Below, piece by piece: positions 15,001 to 24,000 of a stretch of DNA of 64,000 bases. Location of the stretch: NCBI GenBank assembly GCA_965261545.1, contig CBDHDF010000010.1, positions 736,001 through 800,000 on the forward strand, read 5' to 3'. Position numbers: made by a program. How positions within the stretch are numbered: the stretch's first letter is position 1; the number at the start of each line of letters is the position of its first letter. This stretch comes from Bdellovibrionales bacterium. Its GTDB lineage: Bacteria > Bdellovibrionota > Bdellovibrionia > Bdellovibrionales > UBA1609.

Positions 15001-18000
15001 AAAGGTTTTATGCCAGGGTTTTACGGGGATCAACGGAACTTTTCATTCAGAACAGGCCATGGCCTATGGCACCCAAATGGTGGGTGGGGTGACCCCTGGA
15101 AAAGGGGGAGCCGAGCACTTGGGGTTACCCGTTTTCAATACGGTGGAAGAAGCCGTGGAGAGAACAGGGGCTCAAGCCTCTGTGATTTATGTGCCTCCCC
15201 CCTTTGCTGCGGATGCTATTATGGAAGCTGTGGATGCTGAGCTTGAACTTGTGGTTTGCATCACGGAGGGAATCCCCGTGATGGACATGGTCCATGTGTC
15301 TCGCTTTATGAAAGGGAAAAAAACAAGGCTCATTGGCCCCAATTGCCCCGGTGTCATCACACCAGGCGAGTGCAAGGTGGGCATTATGCCTGGGGCAATT
15401 CACAAGCCGGGTCCTATTGGTGTTTTGTCGAGATCGGGCACTCTCACTTATGAAGCTGTGGGGCAACTTTCGGCTATTGGCCTTGGGCAGAGCACCTGCG
15501 TGGGCATTGGTGGGGACCCCATTCACGGAACCAACTTTATTGATGTTTTAGAGATGTTCAATGCCGATGAGAACACAGAGGCCGTCATCATGTTGGGAGA
15601 AATTGGTGGCACGGGTGAAGAGGAAGCCGCCGAATATATTAAGCGTGAATTTAAGAAACCTGTGACGAGCTTTATCGCAGGAGCCACAGCTCCTCCCGGA
15701 AAGCGTATGGGTCATGCGGGAGCTATTATTAGTGGTGGCAAGGGCACGGCTGAAGCTAAATTCGAAGCTCTCGAATCTGCCGGCTGCCACATTGCTCGAA
15801 GTCCCGGAAACCTCGGCACAACTCTTCAGGCCAGCCTGTCTTAGAAGTTACGGCGTCCTTACAAGGCGGAAACCGACATTGAGCCAGCGATAACAGGTCG
15901 AGCGTCGAACGTAGCCACGATCGGAAGAACGCAGGTAACGAGCCCTGCTGAACCAATTGCCGCCACGAACCTTGATGGCCAGCCTTGTTTGCCAGAGCCA
16001 GAGTTCTTAGTGTTCCCAAGCAAAAGACAAGGTTTTTTTAGATAAGGACCGCAATCTTTCTTGGTCAAATCTTAGCTCCTGTGTGGCCCCTGTGGACATC
16101 TCTAAGTTAAACAAACGAATGGACACCAAAGACCATTCTTGGGGCCAGCTATCGCTTATATTTCGCATTTTTAGAAGGGTTTCTGGGGCTCCTGAAAAGC
16201 CTTCTTCACCCTCCCATGGGAGAGTTAAATCCACGGGGTTTTGGCGAACCAGCTCTTCTAGGGGAAGCCAGATAGGCCCTATACTTTGGGTCTCGTGATC
16301 GAAGTAACATTGTGCTTCGATGGTCATGGAGCAGGGCTTTCCATGAACGCGCATATCATCAGAATGAAAAACAATTTTCACTTTCTCGTAGAGATCACAA
16401 ACTCTTTCGAGTTCTCCTCCTGGTCCTCGCACTGTGAAGTGACCCAGACGGAGACCAACTCCCTTACTTGATTTTTCTATGAAGGCTTTTTCAATAAGCC
16501 GTTTCTTAGAAATCATCTTCAAAGAGGTCTTCTGAAGAGTAGAAACATCAAATAAATTTATAGAAGCCGGAGAACGAAATTCTCCAGACCTTTCTTTGAG
16601 AGAGTAAATAGCTCCCTCCCATGAGTCAGTGATGAAATGAAAGCCCAATATCAATGGAGCAGCAAGAGCAAAGAGCCAGGTAATTTTCTTTTTCAAAATA
16701 AACCTCGCAGGCTAAGCTGCTCCCTTTTCATCAAAGTAACAGGTGAGCTTAGCTCTTAAGCGAACAATGGCTTGGGCATGAAGCTGAGAAACACGACTTT
16801 CTGTCACCCTTAGAATACATCCAATTTCTTTAAGGTTAAGATCTTCGTAATAATAAAGGGAGAGTACAATCCTTTGTCTCTCTGGAAGTTCTTCAATCGA
16901 GGTTGTTACGATTTCTTTAACAGATTTAAGGTTGAGTTGATTGAGAGGATTGCTAAGTTTACATCCCTCAAGGAGGTTTAAAATAGATTTTTTATCGACA
17001 TTGCTAAATGTTGTCGAATCATCTATAGATAAAACACTCACGGGACGAACCTGGTTCACAAGGCCAAAAAAACCTTCAATGGTCATGCCTAAGCGATCGG
17101 CAACTTCACGGTCTGTGGGTGTACGCCCTTTCTCAGCTTCCATTTTCACCAAAGTTCGGTCAAGCATTTTTGACTTATCTCTAATGGATCTTGGAACCCA
17201 ATCTTGAGCACGCAACTCATCGAGTATAGATCCTCGTATCCTAAACTCCGCATAGGTTTTAAATTTATTATCTCGAGTTGGATCGTATTTTTCAATCGCG
17301 TCCATAAGTCCAATCACACCACTCGATATAAGATCATCAAGTTCTATATTGGATGGCAATCTCACTGCAATTTTCTGAGCAATAAATTTAATAAGTGGAG
17401 CATACTCCATAATGAGCTTATCTTTTTGCTCAGAGCTAAGGCCGCCAGGTTCCTCTTTATATTGCTTGAGTAAACTGCCACCTGTACTATTAGAAACATC
17501 AGACATATAATTCCCCATCCATACCTATAATTCTATCAAAATGAGAACACTTAAAAAAGTCCTATTCTCTACTCATTACACTTAACAAGGTAGTTCCAGA
17601 AAAACTGAAGTCCTCCCTTGGGCGTGTCCATCATATTAAAACAACTCACTTTTTCTGAAAGTCGATCCAAGCCAAGACTTGAAGGGGCCCCTGGATTTAA
17701 GTTAGAAATTAATTGTTGCGATTTTGTTGCCATTCGGAGACTCTGGTCATTGGGAACATACCCCAAGTAACGAAGGCTCACACATAAGAATTTTGATGCT
17801 GTATCATAAAGAAGTTGATAAACTCGCTTAGACTCCAATTCATCTCTCACATCATTGCAAATAATACAAAATCGATTCTCTTTTTTTTCTTTAAATAAGA
17901 CTTTTATCAAAGCATAGGCATCTGCGAGGCTCGACGGCTCAGGGGTGACCACGACTATAATTTCTTGAGCAGCAGAGCTAAGATAGAGAACATTTTCGTC

Positions 18001-21000: not shown

Positions 21001-24000
21001 CCTTCTGATATGGAAGACATCAAGGCGTCTATTTCACTTTGTGAGAGAATTTGATTCACGATGTCTATACTCCTTAAATAAAAGTTCTTAATTGAAAACC
21101 ATTAACTGAAAATCATTAACTGTAAATCATTAACTAAAAATAAGTTGTGTAAAATAAATACTGCGAATCTGACCTTTTGTTAAAAACAGATTCACTTGGT
21201 TGCGAATTTCATTCTTTAATTCTTCTTTTCCTTTGCGATTCATCATCTCCCCATAGGATTTACTTGAAAGAAGAATAATAATAATATCTCTTATTTTAGG
21301 CTTTAAACGATTGATTTCTTGTTGAGCTCCTTCGCCATCAATTTCAAGTTCCATATTTAATTTGACAAGTTTGCGTCCATGATTTCCTGCAAGATTGACA
21401 AGAAAAGTTTCCAAAGGAATAAGTTGTCCCATCTCAGTAGGTCTTGTTATCAAGCTGTTATCATCGACGATTCCTCTTGAAACGCCATAAAAGGAATTCA
21501 TGCCATCTCCTTTCTCCCACTTGTAGATAAAACTTCCAAATAACAAGATAGCTACAGTATTTAGGATAGCTAAAATAAGAAAGAGTGTAGATTTTTGCAG
21601 TCTTTGAGATCGGCGTGGCGATGTGACCTCTTTCTTTTCTATGTCATGTTCGATCACAGTAGCTCCTTGCGAAATTTTGAAAACTTGTGAGACCCTCTTT
21701 CTCGTATAGAGCAACTTGAGTGCCAACTGACCTAAAGTCTCTTATCCATCAATTTCTTCAAGGCGAAAACCTAGAGCCGACTCTCCACAGGTCAGTATAC
21801 CCATGACTTTTGTGCAGTCATATAAAAGCTGTTGTGGCAAAAGAGGCTCATATTTTGACTGATCCATATAGTAGTTTTTGACACCACTATGGGCGAGGAA
21901 TCAGGATTCAGAGATATAAATGCAAGAGAGATTCGTAGGCGCACAAACAAAGCCATGTCTAAACTTTGTACATTAATGAGAGATGATTTCGAAGCGATCA
22001 AATCTATGTTGTATCCTTCCTATACATTGTATCTTTCCTATACAATGATAGAACACAAGCATATGCCTTGTTAAGAAAGCATAAGCCTTGTTAAGAAAGC
22101 ATAAATTGACGCTCTTTTTATAGTAATACAAGTTATTTATGTTATTTATGGAAAATCGACTACACAAAAATTTAAGTCGCTCCGTATTGGGTCATAAGTA
22201 AACGACACCAAGGAGCGGTTTGTCATTTTGCTCATCTTATGCCACCTCCTTGATATTTTCCTGTCGTACTAATTTGAAAAACTCTTTAAGTTTTAGTTCA
22301 AGTCCCCTCTTTAGCTCAAAGGGGTTGAGTTCAGCTTTACGCCTCCTCAGTGCTTCATCCTCCTCATGGTTTAATACCCCACTTTCAATAACTCTCTGAT
22401 AGGGAGTCTTAGGGGTGCCATACTTTTTCTTGATTCTGGCTCCCACTCGTACCTTTTCCTGAAGTTTAAATGTGGGGAGAAAGAAGTTCTGGAGGGGACT
22501 CCAGTGGTTTTTATAAATGTCATTCATTAAAGGAACTAGCCTTGGATCTTCAAACCTCTCATAGCCAAACAATTCTCTGACGTGGGTGAAGTTTTTTTGC
22601 TCAATGTAGCAGTTGTCATTCTTTTTGTAGGGGCGAGAACGAGTGAACTTGATGTTAGATAATTGGGTGAATTGAAGGACAGGCTTGTTTAAGAACTCAC
22701 TTCCTGAGTCTGAGTTCATGGCCAGTAGTTTAAAAGGTATAGCTTGGTTAATGTTGTTGATTTGCCTTCTCACCTCCGTCCCTTTCTTGGTAAACATAGC
22801 CCGACACTCTGTCCATGTGGTGTTAATGTCGGTCACTGTAAGAGAGCTGATAAAAGGGCCTTGGGCACTCGTTCCACAGTGAGCAACCGTATCTGTTTGT
22901 ATATAACCAGGCCTTGTGACCTTGGAGTCCAGTGTATTGATGGGAACCTTATTTTTCATATATTGGGCAGGACAGGTTGTGGACAATCCCTTAGAGACCA
23001 CTGAAGCCAAGCGAATTTCCTTCAGATAACGCTTCAAGGTGCTGGCACTCATTTTTTCTAACTGAAGCTTTAAGTGGGGAGGACACGACTCATAATTGGG
23101 GAGCCAATCCGGTAGAGCGGCTTTTATTCGTACAGCCGAGATTTTTTCCATTTGTTCCCACAAATATTTGATGTGGGGTCGTAACTCCTCTTGAGAATAA
23201 GCCAGAGGCCTCCCTGACCGCTTGAGTGGCACAGAGCCATTATTTTGTTGAATCTCGTTTAATCTCCTTATGAGTCGCTTCCTAGAGAGGTTTGTGACCA
23301 GTTCCGCATGATCTAGCAACTCCCCTTTTTTAGCCTTAGAACTTTGTTGATATAAGCCTGAAATTGCAGTTAAGTAAGCATTAACAGCCGACTCCCTCAC
23401 TGAAGACCCCCTCGTTGATTGTTTGTTTCCAAAGATCAATCTTACTGAGAGGATCAACAGAGGGGTAGCTCGGCTGATCTGTTTTAGAAGGCGTAACAAC
23501 CGGTGTCTTATTGAGTGAGGGAGTCTCCTCAACGCACATTTTTGACTCAAAAAGAGAAAAGTGGGAACTCGGTATCGGAATAATGAGCCAGCCAGGTGGA
23601 GGACCATAACCCGGGCACCACGAAGGTGTTTTAATGTGATGCGTCTTGGTGTCGTTATTTTTGACCCAATTCGCTCAAATTCCTATCTTGATAAATCATA
23701 AGAAAATTATTGATAAAATATAAATTTTAAATAATAATTAATTAATTAAATGGAATTAATTTTTTTATAAAGTGTATTTGATGAGAATTGAAACGAATTG
23801 TACTAATCTGAGACTTTTAACTATGCTTTTTTAAAATATTTTAAAAGAGTATATGTGTGATGTTTTCCACAAGTTAATTATAACTTAATTCATCGTTAAA
23901 TGGAGGAGGGTGTAAAGTGAATATAAATAGAAAATTATTACATTCATTACAATTATTTAGATTATTATTTGTTTTATTCACTTTTTTAGTTTGTTTTTCG

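What a model noticed while it worked through the whole genome (the two positions that open the first line are those of the whole stretch)
16700..21700. Flagellar switch complex kept while export gate, rod, hook, filament and chemotaxis genes are gone
The genome has whole genes for FliG, FliM, FliN, two FliL, a FliF that lacks its N-terminal half, FlhF, FlhG, sigma-28, two FlgM, FliW and CsrA, but no family of the flagellar export gate (FlhA, FlhB, FliPQR), rod, hook, flagellin, or any Che/MCP protein; in the fliLMN operon fliN is now followed at once by flhF. I read it as a cleanly excised flagellum whose cytoplasmic ring and its polar-placement and regulatory genes are kept for another task (a polar hub or rotor for pili or gliding) rather than as random decay. 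New would be a stand-alone C-ring/MS-ring module in a non-flagellate bacterium.
Evidence so far: Pfam table: present YscJ_FliF_C g01386 (397 aa), FliG_N/M/C g01387 (376 aa), FliM g02563 (417 aa), FliMN_C g02562, FliL g01196 g02564, FlgM g00995 g02823, FliW g00993, CsrA g00994, LlgE_F_G_D1 g02822; absent 39 of 54 families asked, among them Flagellin_N/C, FHIPEP, Bac_export_1-3, FliP, Flg_bb_rod, FlgD, Flg_hook, FliD, FliS, FliE, FliH, FliJ, FlgH, FlgI, MotB_plug, CheW, CheR, CheB_methylest, MCPsignal, H-kinase_dim. Six-frame search: FHIPEP no match here, 4 of 4 relatives have it; FliG_C here 130.9 bits. Gene order C10 752.7-757.7k (minus): fliL g02564, fliM g02563, fliN g02562, SRP54-type g02561, ParA-type g02560, FliA g02559. 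About half of the family bears flagellar families (FliG_C 56 [...]
(Added by a program. Inside this text positions count along the whole contig: contig position 736,001 is position 1 of the stretch shown here. "Call 12" and the like, gene names such as g00115 and contig names such as C1 are that model's own, and its searches are not shown. The text may have been shortened before it was handed on; [...] marks where a part breaks off. The agent that wrote the report below was given it as the finding of a first reader that could run no searches.)

Follow-up and report, generated by a model that had tools for sequence, protein, structure and literature searches.

The report
Trimmed flagellar ring without a flagellum
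A relative of the predatory bacterium Bdellovibrio has lost its propeller and the pump that builds it but keeps a slimmed-down version of the motor's base ring, which related uncultured bacteria also keep, so the ring probably has a second job, perhaps marking the cell's ends.

Summary
Observation confirmed, with corrections. This Bdellovibrionales genome lacks export gate, ATPase, hook, filament, MotB and CheW. It keeps fliL-fliM-fliN-flhF-flhG-fliA (window) and TPR-fliF'-fliG-motE (contig C7). Of 280 order genomes it is the only real FliM+/FlhA- case.

Sigma-28, FlgM, FliW, CsrA and FliL are ordinary leftovers, kept by other non-flagellate kin. The second flgM is an IS-cut duplicate, and a rod remnant (flgG') persists.

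FliF is not N-terminally truncated but internally pruned: both membrane helices, the ring-building RBM3 core and the FliG-binding tail stay; the gate-holding RBM1/RBM2 and rod-holding collar are gone. Five other public proteins (41-50% identical) form one clade with the same pruning. A sixth is a natural FliF'-FliG fusion. An unrelated lineage trimmed FliF the same way. FliG and FlhG evolve about as slowly as in the flagellated sister genus; FliM and FliF' are relaxed but open.

So the ring is probably kept by selection (about 0.75), not a snapshot of decay. Best guess (0.42): a polar landmark docking the MinD-like FlhG, as in Campylobacter, where these ring genes, but not FliH/FliI or gate genes, prevent polar division. 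No expression or phenotype data.

The parts
21710..21726 (-). sigma-54 promoter consensus in front of fliL
   Evidence: Same motif before fliL in flagellated G060 and G042; coordinates; RpoN present.
21130..21657 (-). fliL; likely start GTG at 21657 after an AAGGAG (175 aa); the listed TTG at 21726 lies inside the promoter
   Evidence: Branch ratio to sister 1.25. A second fliL is at C6:141408-141881.
19806..21059 (-). fliM, 417 aa, with in-frame insertions; N-terminal EIDAL peptide, GG loop and SPOA domain kept; relaxed
   Evidence: TIGR01397 220.4 bits, cut-off 219.6. Ratio 2.75. Changes conservative: BLOSUM +0.32 against -0.61 simulated. N-peptide 17 of 17 conserved sites same or similar.
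19331..19804 (-). fliN, 157 aa
   Evidence: TIGR02480 above cut-off; 50 of 63 conserved core sites kept; ratio 1.75.
19331..19340 (-). fliN/flhF overlap where fliO, fliP, fliQ, fliR, flhB and flhA stand in relatives
   Evidence: spanned by an X1 contig without difference.
18423..19340 (-). flhF', 305 aa: first residues plus NG domain; B domain deleted in frame; P-loop kept, third GTPase motif degenerate
   Evidence: ratio 1.77.
17569..18432 (-). flhG, MinD-like ATPase with intact P-loop and C-terminal membrane helix
   Evidence: ratio 1.04; no ortholog-level hit in 3 of 3 non-flagellate genomes searched.
16712..17518 (-). fliA, sigma-28
   Evidence: TIGR02479 above cut-off; strong hit in 41 of 41 genomes incl. 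G000; ratio 0.66.
22237..23607 (-). IS transposase upstream of the operon; not part of the module
   Evidence: Weak IS481/IS3 hits; high-copy depth in runs X1-X3.

Best explanation
After this lineage lost flagellar export, hook, filament and its own stators, it kept a stripped motor base. FliF' (membrane helix, RBM3 core, membrane helix, FliG-binding tail) forms an inner-membrane ring that carries FliG and, in this genome, FliM and FliN. The ring is a static landmark, most likely at a pole. The FliM N-terminal peptide docks the MinD-like ATPase FlhG, which marks that pole and keeps division away from it, in a group without MinC. SHOWN: gene losses, domain pruning, the clade, the FliF'-FliG fusion, constraint on FliG and FlhG, no MinC. 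INFERRED: ring assembly, polar position, FlhG docking, role in division or polarity. Odds that the ring is kept by selection for some non-motility job: about 0.75; for this particular job: 0.42.
For: (1) Pruning follows structure. In Salmonella RBM2 houses the export gate, the collar houses the rod, RBM3 alone can form a ring and the tail binds FliG (PMC11739650, passages). FliF' lost the first two and kept the others. The model has pLDDT 88-97 over most of RBM3, and the single-sequence model matches FliF MS-ring entries. (2) Old clade: P0016, P0017, P0018, P0239, P0241 and fusion P0244 group with FliF' (UFBoot 100). Across 6 pruned proteins, invariant sites lie in RBM3 (50 of 140) and the tail (11 of 39), and none in two linkers (0 of 128). 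(3) FliG travels with it: P0121 and P0120 form a clade with G000 FliG (UFBoot 100) and lie on contigs of the same length as P0016 and fragment P0240. P0244 joins FliF_C to FliG_M and FliG_C. (4) Excess divergence over the flagellated sister genus: FliG 0.11, FlhG 0.03, against 1.22 for flgG'. (5) In C. jejuni, loss of flhG, flhF, fliF, fliM or fliN gives minicells and single gate mutants give few or none (PMC3228812). A later study adds fliG and fliY and excludes fliH and fliI (PMC6946799). G000 keeps all six and lost fliH, fliI and the gate; chance 1e-4 to 5e-4 under two random-loss models, target chosen after the fact. (6) No MinC in 5 of 5 genomes (PMC7186360); FlhG binds the FliM N-terminus in monotrichous species (PMC12826062). 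(7) FlhG with FliM 1-32: weak support, score 0.51, best control 0.02, contacts agree >=81%, partner pLDDT >=58. The mark was reached by 116 of 157 solved and 2 of 215 mismatched pairs, but at <=0.60 by only 18 solved and both mismatches. The alignments were mostly flagellated relatives, so it shows likeness only.
Against: 43 of 95 family genomes lack both FliM and FlhA, and FlhG was missing in 3 of 3 non-flagellate genomes searched, so no such landmark is essential family-wide; DivIVA and ParA are present. FlhF' lost the B domain that holds the FliG-interaction region used for polar capture (PMC12826062). FliM, FliF' and FliN are 1.75-2.75 times faster than the sister, and G000's FliG branch is far longer than those of P0120 and P0121 (0.69 against 0.12 and 0.20), so constraint may be easing here. 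No FliM closer than 36% was found, so FliM/FliN in the rest of the clade are not shown. flgG' also stays open with no place in a ring, here and in G085, so an open frame alone proves little. The clade proteins have no genomic context. TPR, MotE and FliL are not explained by FlhG docking. Bdellovibrio divides a filament, unlike C. jejuni.
Confidence: 0.42

Rival explanations
1. Slow decay with entrenchment: the genes have no positive function. Frames stay open because stops would be polar on fliA or flgM, or because orphan subunits misfold, so physical partners are lost late and together.
For: 35.5% of the genome is high-copy repeat. FliM keeps 51% and FliF' 48% of family-conserved sites, like flgG' at 47%. 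flgG' persists before flgM in two independent losses. G008 keeps the opposite, also diverged, set: fliO, P, Q, R, short flhB and flhA, flhF, all upstream of fliA. The other non-flagellate lineages ended with no ring.
Against: TPR-fliF'-fliG-motE is followed by a convergent gene, so polarity cannot hold it. FliG excess is about a tenth of flgG'. Pruned FliFs only 44-52% alike still conserve RBM3 and the tail, one lineage fused FliF' to FliG, and a second lineage pruned FliF alike.
Confidence: 0.2
2. The ring still meets an ion-driven stator and works as a filament-less rotor or envelope sensor, feeding pili, gliding or prey contact.
For: The charged FliG segment RAA..LKEDL..SRL is kept in G000, P0120, P0121 and the fusion (its role as stator contact is recalled). 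MotE/FlbB-like, TPR and FliL run at sister-like rates; the TPR was not found with this query in 5 of 5 ring-less genomes. An intact PomA-like MotA, type IV and Tad pilus genes and TolQ/ExbB-type motors are present.
Against: No MotB plug above cut-off; the one weak hit lies in another locus. The MotA is 23-29% identical to family MotAs, IS-flanked and without partner. No rod or collar to carry torque. FliL is kept without any ring.
Confidence: 0.15
3. The ring is kept as the assembly signal of a transcription cascade: it sets FlhG or a kinase, which licenses sigma-54 transcription of the operon ending in fliA, the attack-phase sigma factor.
For: The sigma-54 promoter before fliL and RpoN are kept. 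In C. jejuni FliF and FliG are needed to activate FlgSR and sigma-54 (PMC3760246, abstract). FliA governs 92 of 140 mapped attack-phase promoters (PMC3627812).
Against: That checkpoint also needs the export gate (same abstract). The sigma-54 activator of the fliF operon is lost; the nearest G000 protein is a paralog. Ring-less G006 and locus L171 keep a sigma-54-like motif before fliA or fliL.
Confidence: 0.13
4. Assembly artefact: the missing genes lie in unassembled DNA.
For: Metagenome-derived, 11 contigs, 96.8% complete, repeat-rich.
Against: All three flagellar loci are shortened inside contigs; an X1 contig spans the window junction; FliF' and FlhF' are pruned in frame, and FliF' has pruned relatives.
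Confidence: 0.02

Closest known systems
Campylobacter jejuni FlhG / MS-ring / C-ring control of polar division (PMC3228812, PMC6946799)
   Same: Same six genes (fliF, fliG, fliM, fliN, flhF, flhG); FliH, FliI and gate genes dispensable there and lost here; no Min system.
   Different: There it is a side job of a working bipolar flagellum with whole FliF and FlhF, shown by mutants; here there is no flagellum, both proteins are pruned and nothing is tested.
Flagellar MS-C ring of Bdellovibrionales
   Same: Orthologous genes, conserved order, sigma-54 promoter.
   Different: No gate, ATPase, rod, hook, filament or native MotAB; FliF lacks RBM1, RBM2 and collar.
Reduced flagellar systems of Buchnera and Chlamydia (recalled, not read)
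   Same: Flagellar parts kept in non-swimming bacteria.
   Different: Those keep export components; this keeps the rings and discards export. G008 in this family resembles that pattern instead.
Engineered or mutant FliF-FliG fusions of Vibrio and Salmonella (PMC10941966, passages)
   Same: A fused FliF-FliG can form rings.
   Different: P0244 is natural, built on a pruned FliF, and lacks the FliF tail and the FliG N domain.
FliA as attack-phase sigma factor of B. bacteriovorus (PMC3627812)
   Same: Explains why fliA is kept at a normal rate, and plausibly flgM.
   Different: Says nothing about the ring genes.

Membership tests
Bacterial flagellum / flagellar T3SS | Export gate FliP, Q, R, FlhA, FlhB | tested here: not met
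Bacterial flagellum / flagellar T3SS | FliH, FliI, FliJ ATPase complex | tested here: not met
   FliH and FliJ E>=0.45; FliI hits are other ATPases
Bacterial flagellum / flagellar T3SS | Rod, hook, filament | tested here: not met
   only a FlgG D1-domain remnant
Bacterial flagellum / flagellar T3SS | Full FliF with RBM1-RBM3 | tested here: not met
   Only PF08345
Bacterial flagellum / flagellar T3SS | C ring FliG, FliM, FliN | tested here: met
   All above NCBIfam cut-offs
Bacterial flagellum / flagellar T3SS | MotA-MotB stator pair | tested here: not met
   Orphan PomA-like MotA; no MotB plug above cut-off
C. jejuni-type FlhG/ring division control | FlhG with ATPase motifs and membrane helix | tested here: met
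C. jejuni-type FlhG/ring division control | FliF, FliG, FliM, FliN present | tested here: met
   FliF is pruned
C. jejuni-type FlhG/ring division control | Functional FlhF | tested here: inconclusive
   NG domain kept; B domain lost and third motif degenerate
C. jejuni-type FlhG/ring division control | No MinC | tested here: met
   0 of 5 genomes; control rang in 6 of 14
C. jejuni-type FlhG/ring division control | FlhG binds the C ring | tested here: inconclusive
   Weak support, 0.51 against best control 0.02
C. jejuni-type FlhG/ring division control | Polar localisation and minicells in mutants | not testable with these tools
   Uncultured; needs imaging and genetics
FlgSR-type assembly checkpoint | Export gate needed for the signal | tested here: not met
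   PMC3760246 abstract
FlgSR-type assembly checkpoint | Sigma-54 and a sigma-54 promoter on the operon | tested here: met
FlgSR-type assembly checkpoint | Cytoplasmic FlgS-like kinase | not tested
   No search made

The most novel reading that the evidence does not exclude
A clade of non-swimming Bdellovibrionales has turned the flagellar MS-C ring into a stand-alone membrane structure, pruned stepwise (RBM2, then RBM1, then the collar, finally fusion of FliF to FliG), and an unrelated lineage did the same. It is the mirror image of the flagellum-to-injectisome route: the ring is kept and secretion discarded. It serves as a polarity or division landmark or as a sensor, and implies that the flagellar base has this second job in flagellated Bdellovibrio too.
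Probability: 0.5. Interest if true: 0.88.

Novelty: new variant of a known kind. Interest (0 to 1): 0.74.

Why it matters
The reduced flagellar systems I recall keep the secretion part. A lineage that keeps only the ring, prunes the gate- and rod-facing domains and once fuses FliF to FliG would be a natural experiment on what the flagellar base does besides turning a filament. It gives minimal natural FliF and FliF-FliG proteins for ring-assembly studies. It also suggests a direct test, in cultured B. bacteriovorus, of an open question: a 2023 review says no system for placing the division ring has been identified there (PMC11318664, passage).

Tried and rejected
- Expression: no RNA holder listed; not evidence either way.
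- dN/dS was not possible. FliM has no homolog above 36%; one near-identical FliG variant differs at 5 residues, and no DNA was available for it.
- Genomic context of the pruned-FliF clade: the JGI metagenome scan gave 57 loci, all ordinary full-length operons or fragments. In 401 phylum genomes only G000 had a short FliF among 68 matches at E<=1e-70. So the clade's other genes stay unknown.
- IS avoidance as a sign of selection was rejected: repeats are clustered and the loci sit in repeat-free stretches of 22-51 kb.
- The first rate comparison against the whole family overstated FliG's acceleration, because the sister genus is itself fast; it was replaced by sister-based trees. The neutral simulation (300 runs, no indels) shares that baseline and overstates too.
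- C4:41698 as a moved flagellar activator was rejected: 70-74% orthologs exist elsewhere in 4 of 5 genomes.
- The CheY-like receiver is not ring-specific: found in 47 of 83 genomes, including ring-less G085 and 3 of 4 in genus g20.
- A pseudogene survey flagged 4 of 52 loci, at least two of them artefacts; uninformative.
- Earlier scan findings: three look-ups returned nothing.
- Literature: searches found no report of a ring-only remnant or a natural FliF-FliG fusion; the library lacks most subscription papers. PMC10746217 and PMC13063649 (passages) describe flagellar loss but not this pattern. No supplements were read; that of PMC13063649 could hold comparable gene patterns.

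
Full report
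WHAT THE GENOME IS. The window is C10:736001-800000 of G000, 4.32 Mb in 11 contigs, 96.8% complete. The closest FliA loci belong to records titled Bdellovibrionales or Bdellovibrio. 35.5% of its bases lie in repeats with at least three other copies, mostly IS families. Type IVa pilus, Tad, type II secretion and TolQ/ExbB-type motor genes are present, judged by sequence and order.

THE OBSERVATION. The window holds fliL, fliM, fliN, flhF, flhG and fliA on the minus strand. In flagellated relatives fliO, P, Q, R, flhB and flhA lie between fliN and flhF; here the two overlap by 10 nt, and a contig of run X1 spans the junction without a difference. On C7 the order is TPR gene (42456-44624), fliF' (44729-45922), fliG (45926-47056), motE-like (47112-47822). 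Relatives carry a sigma-54 activator, flgB, flgC and fliE before fliF, fliH, fliI and fliJ between fliG and motE, and fliK, flgD and flgE after it. At C10:1044659-1045965 only a 247-aa flgG remnant and flgM remain of the rod operon. Several separate deletions were therefore needed, and the lost genes left no trace in six-frame profile searches. Flagellin and CheW are absent. G000 is the only FliM+/FlhA- genome among 95 of its family and the only real one among 280 of its order.

WHAT IS ORDINARY. A strong FliA hit was found in 41 of 41 genomes, including 1.2-1.6 Mb non-flagellate ones. In B. bacteriovorus FliA motifs stand in 92 of 140 attack-phase promoters (PMC3627812, passages). fliL lies directly before fliA in 3 of 7 ring-less fliA loci examined, and G019 keeps flgM, csrA and fliW. 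The second flgM is an identical 3' copy cut by an IS end. What is special to G000 is FliF', FliG, FliM, FliN, FlhF', FlhG, MotE and the TPR protein. FlhG was absent from 3 of 3 and the TPR from 5 of 5 ring-less genomes searched; MotE was not searched there.

HISTORY. An RpoB+RpoC tree of 41 genomes (40 of the 94 family relatives plus G000) puts G000 beside the flagellated genus g25 (support 0.984). G085, a total loss of similar branch length, and G008, which kept the export-gate genes, sit elsewhere. G000's loss is thus independent, and its housekeeping rate is normal (0.168 against 0.145-0.163).

ARE THE GENES CONSTRAINED? Branch ratio of G000 to the sister genus, with 5-95% range of 40 bootstraps: FliA 0.66, FlhG 1.04 (0.82-1.29), FliG 1.23 (1.01-1.49), MotE 1.24, FliL 1.25, FliN 1.75, FlhF 1.77, FliF' 2.19, FliM 2.75 (2.32-3.45), flgG' 3.93. 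Taking flgG' as a rough clock of relaxation (excess 1.22 substitutions per site), FliG (0.11) and FlhG (0.03) stayed tightly constrained after the loss. In neutral simulations matched to the observed erosion, FliM, FliF and FlgG stayed free of stops in 0 of 300 runs each and FliG in 3 of 300. Observed changes in FliM and FliG are much more conservative than simulated ones; those in FliF' and flgG' only marginally. Against: this baseline overstates, flgG' is open too and recurs in G085, and FliM has lost half of its family-conserved residues.

THE PRUNED FliF. FliF' keeps a probable first membrane helix (weaker than in relatives), lacks RBM1, RBM2 and the beta-collar, and keeps RBM3, the second helix and the terminal helices. 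In Salmonella RBM2 houses the gate, the collar houses the rod, RBM3 alone forms a ring and the tail binds FliG (PMC11739650, passages). The protein search returned three more short FliFs as top hits, P0016, P0017 and P0018, on ENA contigs of 27.7, 10.3 and 104.8 kb. The representative search added P0239, P0241, fragment P0240 and P0244. They form one clade with FliF' (UFBoot 100; FastTree 1.0 among 95 sequences), at 44-52% pairwise identity for the first four. P0241 is basal, lost RBM2 and keeps part of RBM1; most keep a shortened collar; G000 and P0244 lost it. Conservation among six pruned proteins is confined to RBM3 and the tail. Two FliGs form a clade with G000 FliG and lie on contigs of the same lengths as P0016 and P0240, which I read as the same contigs. 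P0244 is one 551-aa protein with FliF_C, FliG_M and FliG_C domains, and both halves fall in these clades. It is a single record, so an assembly error cannot be excluded. P0294 and P0331 have the same architecture but group apart with P0258 (support 0.978; 29-31% identity to FliF'), on contigs under 2 kb: a probable second origin. None of these has known genomic context, and the FliM search found no close homolog.

HOW IT MOST LIKELY WORKS. A FliF without RBM2 should not hold an export gate, so what persists is a membrane ring with a cytoplasmic face. The kept set matches the genes whose loss causes polar division in C. jejuni: flhG, flhF, fliF, fliM and fliN (PMC3228812, passages; there fliG had little effect), with fliG and fliY added and fliH and fliI excluded later (PMC6946799, passages). 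Keeping all six among 10 of 35 genes has a chance of 1.3e-4 (independent loss) or 4.7e-4 (block deletions), with the target picked after the fact. MinC is absent (PMC7186360, passage), and no division-placement system is known in B. bacteriovorus (PMC11318664, passage). FlhG keeps its ATPase motifs and membrane helix, and FliM keeps its N-terminal peptide although CheW is gone; FlhG binds that region in monotrichous species (PMC12826062, passages). A complex prediction gave weak support only: 0.51 against a best control of 0.02, contacts agreeing >=81%, partner pLDDT >=58, in a range reached by 18 of 157 solved complexes and both passing mismatches of 215. I put this mechanism at 0.42. Against it: many kin live without ring or FlhG, FlhF' lost the region that captures FliG at the pole, and the kept TPR, MotE and FliL point to a periplasmic scaffold that docking does not need.

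RIVALS. Slow decay held open by polarity or misfolding (0.20) fits flgG', G008 and the IS load, but not the C7 locus, the FliG rate, the old clade or the fusion. A stator-driven rotor or sensor (0.15) fits the kept FliG charges and scaffold genes, but there is no MotB and the one MotA is a foreign-looking orphan. A transcription checkpoint (0.13) fits the kept sigma-54 promoter, but the known one needs the gate (PMC3760246, abstract) and the operon's activator is gone. Artefact 0.02. The remainder is another unforeseen job.

VERDICT. It is not a flagellum or secretion system by membership; it works at best like the C. jejuni ring-FlhG landmark. Four literature searches found no description of a ring-only remnant in this library. 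New variant of a known kind; interest 0.74.

Noticed in passing
P0244 (ENA contig, 16,152 bases): Natural fusion of a pruned FliF to the FliG middle and C-terminal domains, 551 aa; single record.
   Followed up: partly
P0294, P0331, P0258: A second, unrelated group of FliFs lacking RBM1/RBM2 (P0258 keeps part); taxon and context unknown.
   Followed up: partly
L097:8522-15353 (G008): Mirror-image remnant: fliL, fliO, fliP, fliQ, fliR, short flhB (219 aa), short flhA (592 aa), flhF, fliA, all open but diverged; no FliG, FliM or flagellin.
   Followed up: partly
L096:9659-10965 and L316:9066-9940: A FlgG D1-domain remnant directly before flgM in two independent flagellum losses (G000, G085).
   Followed up: partly
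L242:6534-7316 (C2:700533-701315): Intact PomA-like motA, 47% GC, flanked by IS256 pieces, no motB; probably acquired from another group.
   Followed up: partly
L095 about 10900-11150 (C4) and L096:10666-11050 (C10): Identical 3' part of flgM plus downstream DNA at two loci, each beside an IS end; an IS-mediated rearrangement split flgM from csrA-fliW.
   Followed up: yes
L249 (C11:444931-448471): MotA-like 511 aa, MotB-like 274 aa and a 397-aa gene in a row; looks like a Zorya-type anti-phage locus (recalled, not tested).
   Followed up: no
window 23917-40005: Large surface proteins with repeats of the BspA/DUF285 look (recalled), 2534 and 1871 aa; the first is interrupted by an IS256 at 25551-26753.
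   Followed up: no
whole genome: 35.5% of bases in high-copy repeats, in 394 clustered blocks; unique DNA about 2.8 Mb.
   Followed up: partly
L322:2368-2733 (C6): Orphan CheY-like receiver conserved in 47 of 83 family genomes, including some without flagella.
   Followed up: partly
family-wide: Several independent flagellum losses in one family of presumed predators, with genomes down to 1.2 Mb, all keeping sigma-28 where examined.
   Followed up: partly
window 16007-16696: 229-aa unknown gene directly after fliA, where relatives have a convergent sigma-factor gene; no NCBIfam hit.
   Followed up: no
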